UHGV virus genome: UHGV-0383844
Source of the DNA: a virus
Direction: 5' to 3' (one strand)
DNA: 45,213 bases
How positions within the stretch are numbered: the stretch's first letter is position 1; each line of letters opens with the position of its first letter. This document shows, piece after piece, positions 7,471 through 23,309 of this stretch. The notes beneath the pieces were generated by a model. It saw only the letters and a list, made by a program, of their open reading frames with translations, searched no databases and had not been told where the DNA came from. A program made the position numbers and the translations under genes.

Positions 7471-9003
7471 TTATTTCGGCACTTTCGGGTACACATCGAT
7501 TGTGAATTCAGAGTTTTTCTGGTTTTTCTTGTTCCGTTTCGTCTTAGTCAGAACAATCCTGTCAATCAGCTGTCTCAAGGCGCTGTTCTTTTCCGAGACA
7601 GTCAGAGAGTCCCACTCACTCAATAAATTCTTGCACTTCGGCACAAAATTTTTCCGGTTTGCCTGTCTTGCGATTGTGGTATGCAAATCTTCACGGGCAG
7701 CAGTGATGTTATTCATGCAGTCTCTGATCCGCTGCTCCAGTGCATTCGAACGCTCAATAAAAATTTCTTTTGTGTAAATTCCCTGCTCTAAAAAATCGAA
7801 TAAGGATTCCCTCTGTTTTAAAAGCGTCTGATGTTCAGTCTCAAAATTTGTGACGATCAATTCTTTTGCGGCAATAGCAGCAGTATCTTCCTCATGAGTG
7901 TCAGCAAATTCATATTTGGCTATGTAGTCTTTCAGCCACCCCAGAAGAGCTTCTTCCAGTTCATCAATCCGGATCCCGACTGTGGAGCACTCTGTATACT
8001 GACAGATCAGCATATCATAGGGCGTTTTCGTTTGCGCTTTCTTACGGACCATAAGCCGATCGCATTGTGAGCATCTGACCAGACCTGCAAATAGATTTTG
8101 TATCGGTCTGTCGTTTCTGACTGGAGCAGAAAAACATCCTTTTGGTTGGTTCGCGCGTTTAAATAAGTCTGGGCTGATCCGTGGCGCCCATGCCGCATCT
8201 GATAGGATGTAATCTGTGGCTTTTGGACGGGACTTTACTACACGCCCATCTTTTACAGCCCTGACAGTCTTACGATGCCCCCAGCGGACTTTACCGATGT
8301 TTGCTGGATTTGAGATAATCCCTTTTAAAGTAGAGGGCGTAAAAGGTTTGCCACTCCTTGCAAGGATTCCCATATTGGACATATAGGTACAGGCTTTCTG
8401 GTATCCGTACTGCTTATTTCCGCACAGATCATACATTAGATCAAGGACAGGTGCTTCTGTCTGATGTGGGGCGAGAGAGTAGTGTTTTCCATCCGGCGCA
8501 ATGACGCGCTCCCATCCATAAGGGGCAACATTGCCAACGTAATAACCGTCAGAACTGGAACGTTCCCTGCCACGCTGCATTCGGCGCTTGATTGTGGCGT
8601 ACTCCCGGCGGCTCATAAATAAACTGAACTCAAAGTACTCATTATCATACTCATTTGCAGGATCGTAGGTTTTATTCGGTGTTACAATCCGGGTGTTGGA
8701 ATAAAAAAATGCACGCTGCACACGCCCCTGATCGATCGTATCACCTCTGGCCAGACGATCTACGTCCATTACGAGGGCACCATCCCACATACAGGCTTCT
8801 ACCTCAGAGAGGACTTGCGTCATGACTGGGCGGGCATCGATACTGTCTCCGGACACAACTTCCCGGTAAATCGCACCGATCGGAAGAGAGAGAGCCTTTG
8901 CCAACTCTAACAGGGTAGTAATGTGGCGTTCCAGAACATCAATCCCTAGCGCTTCCAGTTCGGCGTCTTTTCTGGATTTTCTGGCGTAGATAAAATAAGA
9001 CAT
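7471..9003 (-). CDS. int: Large serine recombinase (phage integrase)
   Basis: N-terminal resolvase-type catalytic domain (YARKSRKD...), central recombinase domain, Cys-rich zinc-ribbon (CSQCDRLMVRKK...CQYTEC), C-terminal coiled coil; 510 aa. Confidence 0.9.
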   Translation of the reverse strand: MSYFIYARKSRKDAELEALGIDVLERHITTLLELAKALSLPIGAIYREVVSGDSIDARPVMTQVLSEVEACMWDGALVMDVDRLARGDTIDQGRVQRAFFYSNTRIVTPNKTYDPANEYDNEYFEFSLFMSRREYATIKRRMQRGRERSSSDGYYVGNVAPYGWERVIAPDGKHYSLAPHQTEAPVLDLMYDLCGNKQYGYQKACTYMSNMGILARSGKPFTPSTLKGIISNPANIGKVRWGHRKTVRAVKDGRVVKSRPKATDYILSDAAWAPRISPDLFKRANQPKGCFSAPVRNDRPIQNLFAGLVRCSQCDRLMVRKKAQTKTPYDMLICQYTECSTVGIRIDELEEALLGWLKDYIAKYEFADTHEEDTAAIAAKELIVTNFETEHQTLLKQRESLFDFLEQGIYTKEIFIERSNALEQRIRDCMNNITAAREDLHTTIARQANRKNFVPKCKNLLSEWDSLTVSEKNSALRQLIDRIVLTKTKRNKKNQKNSEFTIDVYPKVPK

Positions 9004-18386: not shown

Positions 18387-19271
18387 ATGGATAAAGAGAA
18401 AAAAGCAATCGAAAGAATTAAAATGGCAAGTGAAATGAGTCTACACCACTATGGTAGACCGCTTATTTGCACATACAGCGGCGGCAAGGATAGTGATGTG
18501 ATGTTAGAGATTTTTAAGCGATCCGGAATTCCGTTTGAAGTGCATAACAGCCATACAACGGCAGATGCGCCACAGACAGTTCGGCATATTCGGGAGGTAT
18601 TCCGAGAACTGGAACTGCATGGAATTAAGTGCGAAATAGAAAAACCACGCTATAAAGGAAAACAGATTAGCATGTGGAGCTTAATTCCCGAAAAGCTTAT
18701 GCCGCCGACAAGAATGGTAAGATATTGTTGCTCTGTGCTGAAAGAAACTGGATGTGCAAACCGGTATATCGCAACCGGAGTGAGATGGGATGAAAGTGCT
18801 TCCAGGATGAAAAGAGAAGAGTTTGAAAAAATTGGACGAACCAAAAAGGAGAAAGAAAAATTCACAAAGATAATGTTGATGAATGATAACAATTCGCAAA
18901 GAAGAATGAGCGAATTGTGCATGCAGCAAAATAAGATGATTGTAAATCCTATTATAGATTGGACGCATAGTGATATCTGGGAATATATAAATTCCGAGAA
19001 AATAGAGACGTGCGAACTGTACCAGTGCGGATACGATCGTATTGGATGCATTGGGTGCGCGCTGGCAGGAAAAAAACGATACAAAGAATTTGCAGATTTC
19101 CCGGAATACAAGAAACTGTATATCCACGCATTTGCCAGAATGTTAGAAGAACGTAAAAGACGTGGAAAAGAATGTAAATGGAAGTCAGGAGAAGAAGTAT
19201 TTCTATGGTGGATGGAAGACGAGAACGTGCCGGGACAGATGAGCATAGAAGATTTTATTACGGAGGAATGA
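18387..19271 (+). CDS. PAPS-reductase-like PP-loop ATP pyrophosphatase (phage type) with C-terminal Cys cluster
   Basis: LICTYSGGKDSDVMLEIF PP-loop motif; CELYQCGYDRIGCIGC. Confidence 0.8.
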   Translation: MDKEKKAIERIKMASEMSLHHYGRPLICTYSGGKDSDVMLEIFKRSGIPFEVHNSHTTADAPQTVRHIREVFRELELHGIKCEIEKPRYKGKQISMWSLIPEKLMPPTRMVRYCCSVLKETGCANRYIATGVRWDESASRMKREEFEKIGRTKKEKEKFTKIMLMNDNNSQRRMSELCMQQNKMIVNPIIDWTHSDIWEYINSEKIETCELYQCGYDRIGCIGCALAGKKRYKEFADFPEYKKLYIHAFARMLEERKRRGKECKWKSGEEVFLWWMEDENVPGQMSIEDFITEE

Positions 19272-21752: not shown

Positions 21753-22166
21753 TTGGACAAGAAAACACTGAAAAAGTATAAGCCAAACAAAGATAGACTT
21801 ATCCGGATTGAGAACCAGATACAAGAACTCTGTGAACGGGAATCGACTGTTGTCATGGGGAAGGTAACGGGATCCAGCGCAGATTTTCCGTACACCGAAG
21901 TGAGAACATCTGTACAAATGTATGACCCTTACGAAGAAGAGAATGTAAGACAGCAGATTAGGCGAAAAGAAGCGGACAGGCTGCGGATCCTGAAAGAGCA
22001 AGAAGAAGTCGAAGACTACATAAATGGGATTGATGATCCGGAGATTAAAGAGATATTTGAGTTGCACTATCTTGAGGGGAAAACCCAGCAAAAAGTCGCA
22101 GATGAAATTGGATATACCCAGGCGCGAGTATCGCAGATTATAAGCGCACAGCTTAAAGATTTATAG
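21753..22166 (+). CDS. Late-gene transcriptional regulator, ArpU / sigma-70 region-4-like
   Basis: C-terminal EIFELHYLEGKTQQKVADEIGYTQARVSQII = sigma region 4 HTH; position just upstream of packaging module. Confidence 0.6.
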   Translation: MDKKTLKKYKPNKDRLIRIENQIQELCERESTVVMGKVTGSSADFPYTEVRTSVQMYDPYEEENVRQQIRRKEADRLRILKEQEEVEDYINGIDDPEIKEIFELHYLEGKTQQKVADEIGYTQARVSQIISAQLKDL

Positions 22167-22243
22167 CATTTATATTTTACTTATGCTATAATTATCCTAG
22201 AACGATTGTATATTGTTCTAAAACAATCTTTCCAAACATTCAG

Positions 22244-22290
22244 AACACCGCCGGACTTTTACCCTTTCTTGTCTGGCGGTGTTTCTATGC
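22244..22290 (+). terminator. Intrinsic terminator (aacaccgccggac...gtctggcggtgtt stem) + tttctat
   Basis: 13-bp stem with one G-U, followed by U-run; downstream of late regulator. Confidence 0.5.
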
Positions 22291-22332
22291 CGTGGTCAGT
22301 TGGGACAAGCAGGTTCGATCCCTGCACACGGT
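22290..22332 (+). other. tRNA-derived fragment / minihelix: acceptor-like stem ccgtg/cacgg plus T-arm gcaggttcgatccctgc (15/17 identical to the T-arm of the downstream tRNA-Lys)
   Basis: canonical T-loop GGTTCGATCC; no D or anticodon arm can be drawn. Confidence 0.35.
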
Positions 22333-22522
22333 TTAGTAGCATATCACGGTAAATATTAAAAATCCGGAATGCCGTGGAAGTGCTACGGAGTGATATCACA
22401 AAACGCAGATATCCGCAGATCTGCAAAACAAACAAAAATAGATTCAGCAATCTATATTTAGTGTAATCAGCGTACCCGAGTGCTGCGGATAGGGTAAAGG
22501 ATGTCAATAAAAGGCATCCTAT

Positions 22523-22595
22523 GGGTGTATAGCTCAGTTGGTAGAGCGATCGGCTTTTAACCGACGTGTCGCAGGTTCGAATCCTGCTATACCCA
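22523..22595 (+). tRNA. tRNA-Lys (anticodon TTT), 73 nt, no encoded CCA
   Basis: manual cloverleaf: acceptor gggtgta/tataccc (one G-U), D-arm gctc-agttggta-gagc, anticodon loop cTTTTaa, T-arm gcagg-ttcgaat-cctgc, discriminator A; A27-C43 mismatch at top of anticodon stem. Confidence 0.85.
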
Positions 22596-22781
22596 TTGTG
22601 GACTACTGCAAAGTTTCCTCCTTTTTTTCTTATAAATTTTGATTGTGTATTTGGTTATTTTGGTTTTTGTTGGCGTTATTAATTCTTTCAGCAGTAGTCC
22701 TAAATATTAAAAAAGTATAAATTAGCACTAAAGTGTTGTGGCTGCTAATTATGTGTGTTATATTCAGTATATAATTAAGAG

Positions 22782-23309
22782 TTGGGGGACAGAGTTATGG
22801 AGCTTTTATGGGATATGTTGATAGGGCTGCTAACAGGAATCGTTAGCGGTGTGATTAGCGGTATATTAGTGACTAAATATTACCGGAAGAAAGACATTAA
22901 AAAAGAGAAAACGAGATATTTCTTGACTGAAAAAAATCGCTTGAGGAATATTTGCGAAGTTTTGGAAAAGATGAAAGAAAATGAAGATGCGTCTCAAGAA
23001 GAACAATGTAATTATTTTCGAGAGTTGAAAGATGTGAAGCGCAGAACAGTGAAGATGGACAGTGAATTTGAGTTGTCAAATGAAGAGTTGAAAAATAGAA
23101 AAGATATAAGTATATTGGATAATAACTTGGGTGAAGTAATCAATGAATTTGATCAAAGCGTTCACATAATGAAAATGGCTGATAAAATGCAAGGTGAAGT
23201 AATTAAAGAAGAAGCAAAAAAGAAAGCACATGGTATACATAAGCTGTATGAAAAAGCAGGATGTTTTCTTCCGATAGTGGAAGATATTATATCAAATATG
23301 AATGTTTAA
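22782..23309 (+). CDS. Membrane-anchored hypothetical protein (probable start ATG 22797; N-terminal TM then charged coiled-coil)
   Basis: MELLWDMLIGLLTGIVSGVISGILV TM helix; RBS gggggacagagttATG; own terminator. Confidence 0.5.
   Translation: MGDRVMELLWDMLIGLLTGIVSGVISGILVTKYYRKKDIKKEKTRYFLTEKNRLRNICEVLEKMKENEDASQEEQCNYFRELKDVKRRTVKMDSEFELSNEELKNRKDISILDNNLGEVINEFDQSVHIMKMADKMQGEVIKEEAKKKAHGIHKLYEKAGCFLPIVEDIISNMNV

What the first reader, a model, noticed from the sequence alone, without database searches (positions are those of the whole stretch)
22290..22595. Phage-encoded tRNA-Lys(UUU) plus an upstream tRNA-derived minihelix in the late-regulator/terminase intergenic region
A clean 73-nt tRNA-Lys(UUU) folds by hand, with an A27-C43 mismatch at the top of the anticodon stem. 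About 200 nt upstream lies a fragment with a near-identical T-arm (gcaggttcgatccctgc) stacked on a 5-bp acceptor-like stem, but no D or anticodon arms. tRNA-Lys(UUU) is the specific target of several host anticodon nucleases (PrrC, PARIS AriB), and phage-borne tRNA-Lys variants are known to neutralise such defences. A codon-usage role or a remnant tRNA-type attachment core for the fragment are alternatives.
Basis: partly seen in the sequence, partly recalled or inferred. Interest (0 to 1): 0.55.

Follow-up and report, generated by a model that had tools for sequence, protein, structure and literature searches.

The report
Phage tRNA-Lys and conserved tRNA-like minihelix
A gut-bacterium phage carries a genuine lysine tRNA that is a one-base anticodon switch of its relatives' asparagine tRNA. 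Next to it sits a conserved 45-base "top half of a tRNA" with no anticodon arm, and both lie in a structured non-coding leader ahead of the phage's late genes.

Summary
Both observations are real. tRNA-Lys(UUU) lies at 22523-22595 (Rfam 71.1 bits). The upstream "fragment" (22289-22333) is not a chance similarity. It recurs in about 110 related gut-virome contigs and Ruminococcus gnavus phages, with 99.4% of its base pairs kept and four pairs showing compensatory changes.

The fragment is a tRNA top half: a 6-bp acceptor stem, a reduced D hairpin with the GG, and a canonical T-arm, with no anticodon arm. It always sits 5-6 nt after a terminator-like hairpin.

Both elements occupy two "slots" in a roughly 480-nt structured non-coding module (about 22225-22700). 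This module is about 90% identical between phages whose flanking activator genes are nearly unrelated.
- Slot 2 is polymorphic: Asn(GUU) about 84 contigs, Ile(UAU) about 20, Lys(UUU) about 11, Trp(CCA) 3.
- The Lys allele is the Asn tRNA with G34U, always with C43. In the window it also has A73, which completes the Lys identity set.
- Allele choice does not track codon usage.
- Slot 1 holds either the minihelix or a non-canonical full-length tRNA-like RNA, so decoding is probably not what is selected there.

Best reading: a late-expressed replacement or supplement tRNA plus an RNase P/Z-type processing element. An anti-defence role is plausible but untested. The attP-remnant idea is rejected.

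The parts
21753..22166 (+). RinA-like late transcriptional activator gene (137 aa), upstream neighbour of the module
   Evidence: Pfam Sigma70_r4 29.2 bits and a weak DUF1492 match. PHROG 36 transcriptional regulator, E 1.4e-16. Only 36% identity over 47 aa to phiRg519T2 gp56, the RinA-family activator.
22184..22192 (+). Extended -10 promoter-like element TGCTATAAT directly after the rinA stop codon
   Evidence: Read from the sequence. The motif TATGCTATAAT is conserved after RinA homologues in family contigs, and also in Blautia phage Montmirail and Anaerostipes phage AC844P2. The simple promoter scan did not flag it because the -35 is poor.
22198..22220 (+). Leader hairpin (UAGAACGAU-UGUAU-AUUGUUCUA)
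   Evidence: Minimum-free-energy fold of 22196-22600. Conserved in window-type contigs and replaced by a different hairpin in phiRg-type contigs.
22244..22288 (+). Terminator-like hairpin T1: 13-bp stem, 14-nt loop, then UUUCUAU
   Evidence: Folds at -24.6 kcal/mol. Nearly invariant in relatives. In other contigs a different hairpin plus T-run (GGTGCTTTTTCTT) takes the same place, always 5-6 nt before the minihelix. The terminator scan did not flag it because the loop exceeds 8 nt.
22289..22333 (+). Slot 1: tRNA 'top-half' minihelix. Acceptor stem 22289-22294 with 22327-22332; reduced D hairpin 22295-22306; T-arm 22309-22325; discriminator U at 22333. No anticodon arm.
   Evidence: Fold. Covariation on 24 distinct variants. 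78 copies among the first 124 family regions and 34 more in a second scan. No Rfam family and no ARAGORN call.
22336..22386 (+). Hairpin domain after slot 1 (window 'type 1'). Other contigs have a three-way junction of unrelated sequence here.
   Evidence: Folds. The inner stem CACGG/CCGUG changes to CGCAG/UUGCG in other contigs. The basal stem of the three-way-junction type is kept through many G.U, G-C and A-U changes.
22390..22424 (+). Perfect palindrome GTGATATCAC (22390-22399) and the invariant CGCAGATATCCGCAGATCTGC (22404-22424). The latter is a direct repeat of CGCAGAT and contains the palindrome GCAGATCTGC.
   Evidence: Sequence. The 21-mer is exact in more than 120 viral contigs. Function is unknown: a protein operator or an RNA hairpin.
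22439..22519 (+). Three conserved small hairpins before the tRNA: 22439-22454, 22473-22496 and 22499-22519
   Evidence: Nearly invariant in alignment A1. Present in the fold of the region.
22523..22595 (+). Slot 2: tRNA-Lys(UUU), 73 nt, A27.C43 mismatch, discriminator A73, no encoded CCA
   Evidence: Rfam RF00005 71.1 bits. ARAGORN. It differs from the commonest family tRNA-Asn(GUU) allele at three positions: G34U, U43C and G73A.
22600..22700 (+). Long-range stem GGACTACTGC (22600-22609) with GCAGTAGTCC (22691-22700), enclosing a U-rich loop of about 80 nt. This is the right end of the shared module.
   Evidence: Kept in nearly all family contigs. Most single changes are G.U-compatible on the + strand, and one contig has a double change.

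Best explanation
The window is a temperate siphophage of the Ruminococcus (Mediterraneibacter) gnavus phage group. Between its RinA-like late activator and its packaging genes lies a roughly 480-nt non-coding, + strand, highly structured RNA module. A promoter-like -10 element sits just upstream of it. The module has two tRNA-shaped slots.

Slot 2 holds a working elongator tRNA. In this phage it is tRNA-Lys(UUU), an allele made from the family's tRNA-Asn(GUU) by G34U. Here it also carries G73A, which gives the full Lys identity set of a UUU anticodon plus A73. It is probably made with the late transcript, cut out by RNase P and RNase Z, and given its CCA end by the host. It then tops up or replaces one host tRNA while late proteins are made. 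I lean towards host-strain-specific tRNA depletion as the pressure behind allele switching, because allele choice does not follow codon usage. This is inference.

Slot 1 holds the 45-nt minihelix. It keeps exactly the parts of a tRNA that RNase P, RNase Z, the CCA-adding enzyme and T-loop modifying enzymes recognise: the acceptor/T-arm stack and the D-loop/T-loop elbow. It has no anticodon arm. I propose it acts as a processing or punctuation signal. It would separate the promoter-proximal leader and terminator hairpin from the downstream structured RNA, releasing a small stable tRNA-like RNA.

Shown: the structures, their conservation and covariation, the allele series, and the + strand signal. 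Inferred: transcription, processing, charging and physiological role.
For: The tRNA is genuine:
- Rfam and ARAGORN both call it.

The Lys allele is an Asn backbone with G34U:
- 11 of 11 Lys contigs carry C43, against 2 of 84 Asn contigs.
- A73 occurs in 5 of 11 Lys contigs against 2 of 84 Asn contigs, Fisher p = 1.5e-4 by contig but only 0.07 on unique sequences.
- Identity rules from the literature are Asn = GUU + G73 and Lys = UUU + A73 (PMC9976931).

The slot is polymorphic and exchanged:
- Slot-2 alleles: Asn about 84, Ile(UAU) about 20, Lys about 11, Trp 3, in conserved flanks.
- Lys alleles sit on at least 6 flank haplotypes, whose nearest neighbours carry Asn at up to 98% flank identity.
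- No link between allele and codon usage.

The minihelix is selected as an RNA structure:
- 24 distinct variants, 99.4% paired, 4 pairs with compensatory changes, 0 of 500 shuffles reach the observed percentage paired or covariation score.
- T-loop TTCGA, G53:C61 and the D-loop GG are invariant.
- It is always 5-6 nt after a hairpin plus T-run, even where that hairpin has a different sequence.

Decoding is probably not what slot 1 is selected for:
- The alternative occupants are a 'tRNA-Ala(CGC)' without G3:U70 that has an 8-bp acceptor stem and an anticodon loop that can close to a triloop. Its best Rfam score is 28.3 bits to tRNA-Sec, below threshold.
- Seven contigs carry a degenerate anticodon arm.

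The module is + strand RNA:
- G.U-compatible variation in the basal stem of the junction domain and in the 22600/22691 stem.
- The 405-nt region folds at z = -6.9.

The module behaves as a unit:
- About 90-93% identity between phages whose RinA proteins share only 36% over 47 aa.

Precedent:
- The anticodon-arm-less tRNA-like module of M. smegmatis YrlA is cut by RNase P and receives CCA (PMC4201824).
Against: - There are no expression or processing data.
- The terminator-like hairpin directly upstream could prevent most transcription of the minihelix.
- The acceptor stem is 6 bp plus a G.A apposition rather than 7 bp. A 7-bp stem is reported as a major determinant for RNase P.
- Covariation rests on a modest number of closely related sequences, and on a few events that may each be inherited by many contigs.
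- L248 and L254 lack the 5' two-thirds of the hairpin domain after slot 1, so any punctuation role cannot depend on that RNA.
- For the tRNA, the host tRNA-Lys could not be retrieved, so neither 'differs from the host copy' nor nuclease resistance was tested.
- AAA is the second most frequent codon at 49.5 per 1000, which suits plain codon supply.
- Ile(UAU) and Trp(CCA) are not among the nuclease targets documented in the papers I read.
Confidence: 0.45

Rival explanations
1. Counter-defence cassette. Slot 2 supplies a nuclease-resistant copy of whichever host tRNA the local strain's tRNA-targeting defence destroys. The minihelix is a decoy or sponge for enzymes that recognise the acceptor/T-arm half of tRNAs.
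For: - Anticodon polymorphism among near-identical phages without any codon-usage correlate.
- Lys(UUU) and Asn(GUU) are both AriB (PARIS) targets, and T5 variants of them neutralise PARIS (PMC12409363).
- The window tRNA reads U36-A-A-C-C-G where E. coli tRNA-Lys has the AriB site U36-A-A-U-C|A.
- The minihelix keeps exactly that half.
Against: - No tRNA-targeting system was identified. The phage's own accessory genes give no PADLOC defence hit beyond HTH regulators.
- The host tRNA was not available for comparison.
- The anticodon loop is canonical.
- Ile(UAU) and Trp(CCA) alleles are unexplained by the nucleases described in the papers I read.
- A single-copy decoy behind a terminator would have to reach high levels to compete with the cellular tRNA pool.
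Confidence: 0.25
2. Plain codon supply plus an evolutionary relic. The tRNA simply boosts decoding of abundant A-rich codons. The minihelix is an internally deleted tRNA pseudogene that persists by hitch-hiking in a recombining module.
For: - AAA (49.5 per 1000) and AAT (35 per 1000) are among the most used codons.
- Real phage tRNAs (Met, Thr and others) share the minihelix's T-arm and its ACACGGC 3' acceptor strand, so an origin from a tRNA by deletion is plausible.
- Slot-1 full-length forms look as if they are decaying.
Against: - Allele identity does not track codon usage. ATA is, if anything, lower in phages with the Ile allele.
- TGG is a low-use codon, yet a Trp allele exists.
- The minihelix shows compensatory and G.U-tolerant changes in all three helices and invariant T-loop and D-loop GG. 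Meanwhile the adjacent hairpin domain has been replaced by unrelated sequences. A pseudogene should decay in loops and stems alike.
Confidence: 0.2
3. The minihelix is a remnant tRNA-type attachment (attP) core or some other DNA-level site.
For: Related prophages can integrate at tRNA genes (PMC10072058).
Against: - It contains both acceptor strands and a D-like hairpin, not just a tRNA 3' end.
- Its variation preserves RNA pairing, including G.U pairs, which would be C.A mismatches on the other strand.
- It lies about 13 kb from the integrase, which is a large serine recombinase.
- Its position is fixed relative to a terminator and a promoter in all contigs.
Confidence: 0.02

Closest known systems
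Phage-encoded tRNAs that rescue infection from tRNA-targeting defences (T5 tRNA-Lys(UUU), Thr(UGU) and Asn(GUU) against PARIS AriB; T5 tRNA-Tyr against retron Ec78)
   Same: A virus-borne elongator tRNA with a UUU anticodon. Sibling phages carry GUU in the same gene, and both specificities are AriB targets in E. coli.
   Different: This is a temperate Firmicutes phage with one functional tRNA rather than a large array. No cognate nuclease is known. Resistance-conferring differences from the host tRNA were not testable. The allele arose by an anticodon shift of the phage's own tRNA-Asn, not by capture or divergence of a tRNA-Lys.
tRNA-like processing signals: plant mitochondrial t-elements, the MALAT1 mascRNA, and murine gammaherpesvirus 68 tRNA-miRNA (TMER) units. 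Recalled from my own knowledge, not retrieved here.
   Same: tRNA-shaped RNAs that are not used in decoding but recruit RNase P and RNase Z to define transcript ends. A structured hairpin RNA follows immediately downstream, as in TMERs.
   Different: Those are eukaryotic or organellar. Processing has not been shown for the element here. It lacks the whole anticodon arm and sits 5-6 nt after a terminator-like hairpin in a phage late leader.
Bacterial and phage Y RNA-like YrlA (Rfam RF02553) and the tRNA-like domain of tmRNA
   Same: Mimics of the tRNA acceptor stem, T-arm and D-loop without an anticodon arm. M. smegmatis YrlA is cut by RNase P and receives CCA.
   Different: There is no Ro60/Rsr gene and no protein above 300 aa in the early region. 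The minihelix gives no RF02553 match, and the only YrlA hit (16.1 bits against a gathering score of 69) lies on the real tRNA. There is no Ro-binding stem, no tag ORF, and ARAGORN finds no tmRNA.
tRNA anticodon shifts / tRNA gene remolding, and non-canonical 8/4 and 9/3 tRNAs of bacteria and their phages (PMC5389517, abstract only)
   Same: A one-base anticodon change that re-assigns a tRNA gene. Here it is accompanied in some alleles by the matching discriminator change. The slot-1 full-length form has an unusual 8-bp acceptor stem.
   Different: In this case the shift is seen as a standing polymorphism among near-identical phages. The slot-1 form is 8/5 without a long variable arm and was not matched to any described class.
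Large prophage-associated ncRNAs that neighbour tRNAs (GOLLD, ROOL). The association is recalled from my own knowledge.
   Same: A long, highly structured non-coding RNA in a Firmicutes prophage that contains or adjoins tRNAs.
   Different: The only Rfam family to reach its gathering score in 22150-22800, searched at E up to 10, is tRNA on the real tRNA gene, and neither GOLLD nor ROOL appears among the weak matches. The same holds for four relatives and Montmirail, searched at E up to 0.5 and 1. The module is smaller and modular.

Membership tests
tRNA (Rfam RF00005), for 22523-22595 | Cloverleaf that scores above the curated gathering threshold | tested here: met
   71.1 bits against 29, full-length match 1-71 of 71. 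ARAGORN calls tRNA-Lys.
tRNA-Lys identity (class II LysRS), for 22523-22595 | Anticodon U34 U35 U36 plus discriminator A73 | tested here: met
   UUU at 22556-22558 and A at 22595. Identity rules come from PMC9976931. Actual charging cannot be tested here.
Defence-evading phage tRNA (T5 tRNA-Lys type) | Differs from the host isoacceptor at the nuclease recognition or cleavage site, and rescues infection in the presence of the nuclease | not testable with these tools
No nuclease was identified. Only the mismatch to the E. coli AriB site could be read.
tRNA (RF00005), for the minihelix 22289-22333 | Four-arm cloverleaf with an anticodon arm | tested here: not met
   No RF00005 match at E up to 10. 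The only hit is an 8.4-bit match of the T-arm to a tmRNA model. No ARAGORN call. There is no anticodon arm in the sequence.
tRNA 'top half' / elbow mimic, for the minihelix | Acceptor stem stacked on a 5-bp T-stem; a 7-nt T-loop with T54, T55, C56 and A58; G53:C61; a D-loop GG | tested here: met
   All of these are invariant across 24 variants. The helices are kept at 99.4% with compensatory changes. The acceptor stem is 6 bp plus G.A rather than 7 bp.
RNase P / RNase Z processing signal (t-element or mascRNA type) | Cleavage at the 5' end and after the discriminator, in vivo or in vitro | not testable with these tools
   Only the required shape is present. No transcript data are available.
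YrlA / Y RNA (RF02553) | Covariance-model match, a Ro-binding stem and a neighbouring Ro60 (Rsr) gene | tested here: not met
   No match on the minihelix. The 16.1-bit hit against a gathering score of 69 lies on the true tRNA. No TROVE/Ro60 gene was found among the ORFs scanned.
tmRNA | tRNA-like domain split around a tag-peptide reading frame and pseudoknots | tested here: not met
   ARAGORN, which also searches for tmRNA, finds none in the window or in 125 family loci.
tRNA-type attP core | Identity to the 3' part of a host tRNA gene, adjacency to the integrase, and a tyrosine integrase | tested here: not met
   Both acceptor strands are present. The element is 13 kb from a large serine recombinase at 7471-9003.
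GOLLD / ROOL large phage ncRNAs | Rfam covariance-model match | tested here: not met
   Only tRNA (on the true tRNA gene) reaches its gathering score in 22150-22800 at E up to 10. Neither GOLLD nor ROOL is among the weak matches there or in the relatives.

The most novel reading that the evidence does not exclude
The roughly 480-nt module is a self-contained, horizontally exchanged 'tRNA countermeasure cassette' in the late-operon leader of gut Lachnospiraceae phages. Slot 2 switches anticodon (Asn, Lys, Ile or Trp) by point mutation and cassette recombination, to replace whichever host tRNA a strain's defence destroys. The anticodon-less top-half mimic in slot 1 acts in trans as a decoy or inhibitor for enzymes that recognise the acceptor/T-arm half of tRNAs, such as tail- or acceptor-cleaving nucleases and CCA-modifying toxins. 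The terminator upstream keeps the whole cassette silent in lysogens until late antitermination.
Probability: 0.15. Interest if true: 0.8.

Novelty: new variant of a known kind. Interest (0 to 1): 0.55.

Why it matters
Phage tRNAs are now seen as counter-measures to tRNA-targeting immunity. Almost all the evidence comes from large lytic coliphages with many tRNAs.

This finding offers a small temperate gut phage family with a single tRNA slot that varies naturally between four anticodons on otherwise near-identical genomes. It includes a one-step Asn-to-Lys identity switch. That is a ready-made natural experiment for asking whether codon supply or tRNA-directed defence drives tRNA carriage by phages.

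The minihelix adds an undescribed, conserved tRNA top-half mimic in a bacteriophage. If RNase P and RNase Z process it, it would be, to my knowledge, a phage counterpart of the tRNA-like punctuation signals known from organelles and herpesviruses. If it acts in trans, it would be a new kind of anti-defence RNA. It also flags a spurious 'hypothetical protein' annotation that overlaps it in a deposited genome.

Tried and rejected
1. The genome-contig scan with a loose minihelix pattern returned 120 hits in unrelated high-GC genomes. All were chance matches or parts of real tRNAs. This spent the only scan that could have reached host genomes, so the host tRNA-Lys/Asn comparison was not possible.

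2. Alternative pairing between the minihelix acceptor strands and the identical CACGG/CCGTG strands of the next hairpin (a riboswitch-like toggle). Rejected because in other contigs that hairpin changes to CGCAG/TTGCG while the minihelix keeps GCCGTG/CACGG.

3. A kissing interaction between the T1 loop (CUUUUACCCU) and the invariant AGGGUAAAGG before the tRNA. Rejected because the loop varies (UUUCGCCC, UUCUCCCC) while the partner does not.

4. Known RNA families. Only tRNA on the true tRNA gene reaches its gathering score in the region. YrlA scores just 16.1 bits on that tRNA, tmRNA gives only an 8.4-bit T-arm match, and GOLLD, ROOL and riboswitches give nothing credible. The same holds in relatives and in Blautia phage Montmirail.

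5. A phage-encoded tRNA nuclease with the tRNA as self-immunity, or phage tRNA-repair or modification enzymes. None was found by PADLOC or Pfam among the accessory and early genes.

6. A small protein instead of RNA (window ORF 22206-22352, and RG-TP1 gp15). Rejected because 1-2-nt indels and pair-preserving substitutions dominate.

7. Codon usage tracking of alleles: none found.

8. A mini-like element in the Montmirail or AC844P2 leaders: none seen.

9. The supplementary defence-system table for R. gnavus strains is not held as text.
Full report
**1. What is at the coordinates**

ARAGORN finds a single tRNA in the 45,213-nt window: tRNA-Lys, anticodon TTT, at 22522-22596. Rfam's tRNA model places it at 22523-22595 with 71.1 bits against a gathering score of 29. 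The discriminator is A, and no CCA is encoded.

The upstream "fragment" is also there. The sequence GCCGTG-GTC-AGTTGG-GAC-AA-GCAGG-TTCGATC-CCTGC-A-CACGGT-T spans 22289-22333. On its own it folds into three helices at -19.3 kcal/mol (z = -2.1):
- a 6-bp acceptor-like stem;
- a 3-bp hairpin whose loop keeps the D-loop GG;
- a canonical 5-bp, 7-nt T-arm.

The motif GGTTCGANNCC occurs only at these two places in the window, against 0.15 expected. Neither ARAGORN nor any Rfam family recognises the fragment. The only hit is an 8.4-bit match of its T-arm to a tmRNA model.

**2. Whose genome this is**

The window is a complete-looking temperate siphophage. Its genes include:
- tail genes, holin and amidase;
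- a large serine recombinase at 7471-9003;
- Rha/KilAC antirepressor, RecT, SSB and a replisome organiser;
- a RinA-like activator at 21753-22166 (Sigma70_r4, PHROG 36), followed by packaging and structural genes.

The non-coding stretch after the activator matches Ruminococcus (Mediterraneibacter) gnavus phages phiRg519T2, phiRg507T2, phiRgIBDN1, phiRgPS_6, phiRM10 and RG-TP1, plus a human faecal virome contig, at 79-93% identity. The activator proteins, by contrast, share only 36% identity over 47 residues. The closest activator homologues, at about 41%, are in Blautia and Anaerostipes phages.

The shared DNA runs from about 22225 to about 22700. The non-coding region is therefore a mosaic module that is better conserved than its coding neighbours.

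**3. Two tRNA slots**

In the annotated relatives, the position of the window's tRNA-Lys holds tRNA-Asn(GUU) or tRNA-Ile(UAU). In four of the annotated relatives (phiRg519T2, the two phiRg507T2 phages and phiRgIBDN1) the position of the minihelix holds a "tRNA-Ala(CGC)".

Counts differ by one or two between calls, depending on whether whole loci or extracted regions were scanned.

| Slot | Occupant | Contigs |
|---|---|---|
| 2 | Asn(GUU) | about 84 |
| 2 | Ile(UAU) | about 20 |
| 2 | Lys(UUU) | about 11 |
| 2 | Trp(CCA) | 3 |
| 1 | minihelix | 78 |
| 1 | Ala(CGC)-like RNA | 28-29 |
| 1 | same RNA with a degenerate anticodon arm, not called by ARAGORN | 7 |

Slot-1 and slot-2 states combine freely.

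**4. The Lys allele is an anticodon-shifted Asn tRNA**

All Lys alleles share the Asn backbone. The window's tRNA differs from the commonest Asn allele at three of 73 positions: G34U, U43C and G73A.
- C43, which produces the A27.C43 mismatch, is present in 11 of 11 Lys contigs but only 2 of 84 Asn contigs.
- A73 is present in 5 of 11 Lys contigs against 2 of 84 Asn contigs (p = 1.5e-4 by contig, 0.07 on unique sequences).

According to the identity review PMC9976931, Asn identity is GUU plus G73 and Lys identity is UUU plus A73. Asn identity has been transplanted into a tRNA-Lys by exactly those changes. The window allele therefore carries the complete Lys set on an Asn body. That fits real charging by LysRS, which remains an inference.

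It also means this tRNA is not a captured host tRNA-Lys gene. The Trp allele is a chimera whose 5' half is identical to the Asn/Lys backbone.

Lys alleles occur on at least six different flank haplotypes. Each one's nearest neighbour carries Asn, at up to 98% flank identity. The allele is therefore being exchanged by recombination, or arises repeatedly.

**5. Codon supply or defence?**

AAA is the phage's second most used codon at 49.5 per 1000, and AAT is also common at 35 per 1000. A supply role is therefore possible.

Across contigs, however, codon frequencies do not differ by allele:
- AAA is 48.5 per 1000 in Lys-allele contigs and 49.1 in Asn-allele contigs.
- ATA is 13.6 per 1000 in Ile-allele contigs and 16.8 in Asn-allele contigs.

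That leaves some host-dependent pressure. The literature makes tRNA-targeting immunity a reasonable candidate. E. coli PARIS AriB cleaves tRNA-Lys(UUU) and tRNA-Thr(UGU), and secondarily tRNA-Asn(GUU). The T5 variants of those tRNAs neutralise it, and resistance maps to positions 39 and 41 (PMC12409363). The window tRNA reads C39 C40 G41 where the E. coli target has U39 C40 A41.

None of this is a test. I could not retrieve the host tRNAs. I found no tRNA nuclease, tRNA ligase or defence system in the phage itself. Ile(UAU) and Trp(CCA) are not explained by the nucleases described in the papers I read.

**6. The minihelix is selected as RNA**

I aligned 24 distinct variants of two sub-types:
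- type A: GTC-AGTTGG-GAC with T-stems GCAGG/CCTGC or GCGGG/CCCGC;
- type B: GC-AAATGTAGG-GC or AC-AAACGTAGG-GT with T-stem ACAGG/CCTGT.

The results were as follows:
- 99.4% of pair cells are standard pairs. Sliding the partners by one to three columns drops this to 30-56%.
- Four of 13 pairs change on both sides: two in the D-like hairpin and two in the T-stem.
- Four further pairs vary only through G.U intermediates.
- None of 500 shuffles reaches the observed covariation score or percentage paired.

TTCGA of the T-loop, G53:C61 and the D-loop GG never vary, the same pattern as in working tRNAs.

A second, context-free scan for the T-arm plus 3' acceptor strand found 86 stretches. Among the 45 new loci, 34 are minihelices. 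The other 11 are real tRNAs (Met, Thr, Tyr, Ser, Phe, Asn) or unrelated sequence. This suggests the element descends from a genuine tRNA by loss of the anticodon arm.

In every case the minihelix begins 5-6 nt after a hairpin plus T-run. This holds even where that hairpin has a different sequence, for example GGTGCTTTTTCTT instead of GTCTGGCGGTGTTT. Among isolated phages it occurs only in the R. gnavus group. There it is either unannotated or overlapped by a "hypothetical protein".

**7. Slot 1 is probably not selected for decoding**

The full-length alternative in slot 1 has the following features:
- It lacks the G3:U70 pair that defines alanine tRNAs.
- It has an 8-bp acceptor helix (G-1:C73).
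- Its anticodon loop can close to a triloop through G32-C38 and U33.G37.
- Its best Rfam match is tRNA-Sec at 28.3 bits, below the gathering score of 47.

Seven contigs have a 4-bp arm with a loop GGUAUCG that lacks U33. The series runs from an odd full-length form, to a degenerate arm, to no arm at all. The acceptor/T-arm half is kept throughout. This indicates that the tRNA top half is what matters in this slot.

**8. The surroundings are structured + strand RNA behind a promoter**

Directly after slot 1 comes a hairpin (window 22336-22386). In other contigs it is a three-way junction of unrelated sequence. Its basal stem is kept through many G.U, G-C and A-U exchanges and some double changes.

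After slot 2, a 10-bp long-range stem (22600-22609 with 22691-22700) is kept. Its single changes are mostly G.U-compatible on the + strand, and one contig has a double change. G.U tolerance identifies the + strand transcript as the selected molecule. The 405-nt stretch 22196-22600 folds at z = -6.9 against shuffles.

Upstream of the terminator-like hairpin T1 (22244-22283, -24.6 kcal/mol), every contig type has a promoter-like element:
- in the window type, TATGCTATAAT (extended -10, 22184-22192), which is also conserved after the activator homologues of Blautia phage Montmirail and Anaerostipes phage AC844P2;
- in the phiRg type, three TTGTCC repeats plus TATAGTATAAC;
- in a third type, TTGACA-17-TATACT.

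The module is therefore the 5' leader of a transcription unit that runs into the packaging genes. A terminator lies about 50 nt after the presumed start. Montmirail has the same layout, with a different 460-nt leader and a tRNA-Asn(GUU). No Rfam family matches there either.

**9. Mechanism proposed**

The parts retained by the minihelix are the coaxial acceptor/T-arm stack and the D/T elbow. These are what RNase P, RNase Z, the CCA-adding enzyme and T-loop modification enzymes read. This is established knowledge. As a precedent, the anticodon-less tRNA-like module of M. smegmatis YrlA is cut by RNase P and gains CCA in vivo (PMC4201824).

I therefore propose the following, all of it inferred:
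- The late leader transcript, when it reads through T1, is cut at G22289 and after U22333, and again around the tRNA.
- This detaches the promoter-proximal leader, releases a small tRNA-like RNA and the inter-slot RNA, and yields the mature tRNA-Lys.
- T1 may insulate the cassette from early or lysogenic transcription.

The main weaknesses are the 6-bp acceptor stem and the complete lack of expression data. A trans-acting decoy role remains open, for example against defences that grip the acceptor stem and T-arm such as Cas12a3 (PMC12851939).

**10. Comparison, novelty and verdict**

The tRNA is an ordinary member of RF00005 and of the broad class of phage tRNAs. Three things are not ordinary:
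- the standing four-anticodon polymorphism in one slot, including an Asn-to-Lys identity switch;
- the conserved anticodon-less tRNA mimic in the other slot;
- their packaging in a mobile structured leader module.

I found no description of these in the two R. gnavus phage papers, which report only "one or two tRNA genes". Rfam has no matching family, and a targeted literature search found nothing either.

I rate it a new variant of known kinds (phage counter-measure or supply tRNAs, and tRNA-like processing elements), with interest 0.55. The anti-defence interpretation is plausible and somewhat strengthened, but unproven. The attP alternative is rejected.

Noticed in passing
window 22184-22288: A promoter-like extended -10 (TGCTATAAT) lies right after the activator gene. 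It is followed by a leader hairpin, a conserved linker (CTTTCCAAACATTC) and a strong terminator-like hairpin about 50-90 nt downstream. The layout recalls lambda PR'-tR' and its 6S RNA. It could define a roughly 90-nt small RNA, or a late leader that needs antitermination. Every family contig has some promoter type at this place.
   Followed up: partly
L001 1955-2010 and family contigs: PhiRg-type phages have three direct repeats, TTGTCC(G) or TTGTTC(G), spaced about 10 nt apart. They sit just upstream of a -10-like TATAGTATAAC after their RinA gene. This is probably the activator binding site of the late promoter.
   Followed up: no
L001 2105-2177 and about 28 IMG/VR contigs: The annotated 'tRNA-Ala(CGC)' in slot 1 lacks G3:U70. 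It has an 8-bp acceptor helix with G-1:C73, a histidine-tRNA-like feature. It also has a 5-bp D stem and an anticodon loop that can close to a triloop. Its best Rfam match is tRNA-Sec at 28.3 bits, below threshold. It is unlikely to be an alanine tRNA.
   Followed up: partly
window 22390-22424: Short perfect palindromes lie at a fixed place. GTGATATCAC occurs in the window type and TGGTACCA in other types. Next comes an invariant CGCAGATATCCGCAGATCTGC, which is a CGCAGAT direct repeat containing the palindrome GCAGATCTGC. It is identical in phages with different activators. It may be an operator for a shared or host protein, or an RNA hairpin. The three-way-junction types also carry CAGCTG in a hairpin loop.
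   Followed up: no
window 22600-22700: A 10-bp long-range stem encloses a U-rich loop of about 80 nt right after the tRNA. It is kept with G.U-compatible changes on the + strand. In most relatives a canonical terminator follows it (AGCATCCAGAGATGGGTGCT-TTTATT), and the window replaces that terminator with other sequence.
   Followed up: partly
L010, L052, L124 (slot 2): The tRNA-Trp(CCA) alleles are chimeras. Their first 25 nt or so are identical to the Asn/Lys backbone, while the anticodon arm and T-arm differ. The acceptor pairing is shifted by one base, which points to recombination inside the tRNA gene.
   Followed up: no
L016, L040, L054, L112: Four family contigs carry an additional tRNA-Arg(CCU) about 1 kb from the module.
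   Followed up: no
L247 2230-2710 (Blautia phage Montmirail): The architecture is the same in another genus. A RinA homologue is followed by TATGCTATAAT, a 460-nt G+C-rich leader with no Rfam match that contains a GGAAGTGC motif also seen in the window's hairpin domain, and then tRNA-Asn(GUU). A tRNA-Ile(UAU) lies 1.1 kb further on.
   Followed up: partly
window 22206-22352; L002 2013-2156 (RG-TP1 gp15): A 48-aa ORF, annotated as a hypothetical protein in RG-TP1, overlaps the terminator hairpin and the minihelix. The substitution pattern preserves RNA pairs and includes small indels, so it is probably not a gene.
   Followed up: partly
window 22782-23309: A 170-175-aa ORF with an N-terminal hydrophobic segment lies between the module and the small terminase. 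Its only family matches are weak and sub-threshold (Pfam Ribonuc_red_2_N, 18.5 bits against a 27-bit cut-off; PHROG 17948, unknown function). The R. gnavus relatives have different genes there. It may be a moron.
   Followed up: partly
window 18387-19271: A PAPS-reductase-domain protein (294 aa) lies in the early region. It may be a DNA-modification or anti-restriction function.
   Followed up: no
L248, L254: Two contigs have the minihelix followed directly by the 3' third of the hairpin domain, with the rest deleted, and then tRNA-Trp. The inter-slot hairpin domain is therefore dispensable in at least some phages.
   Followed up: no
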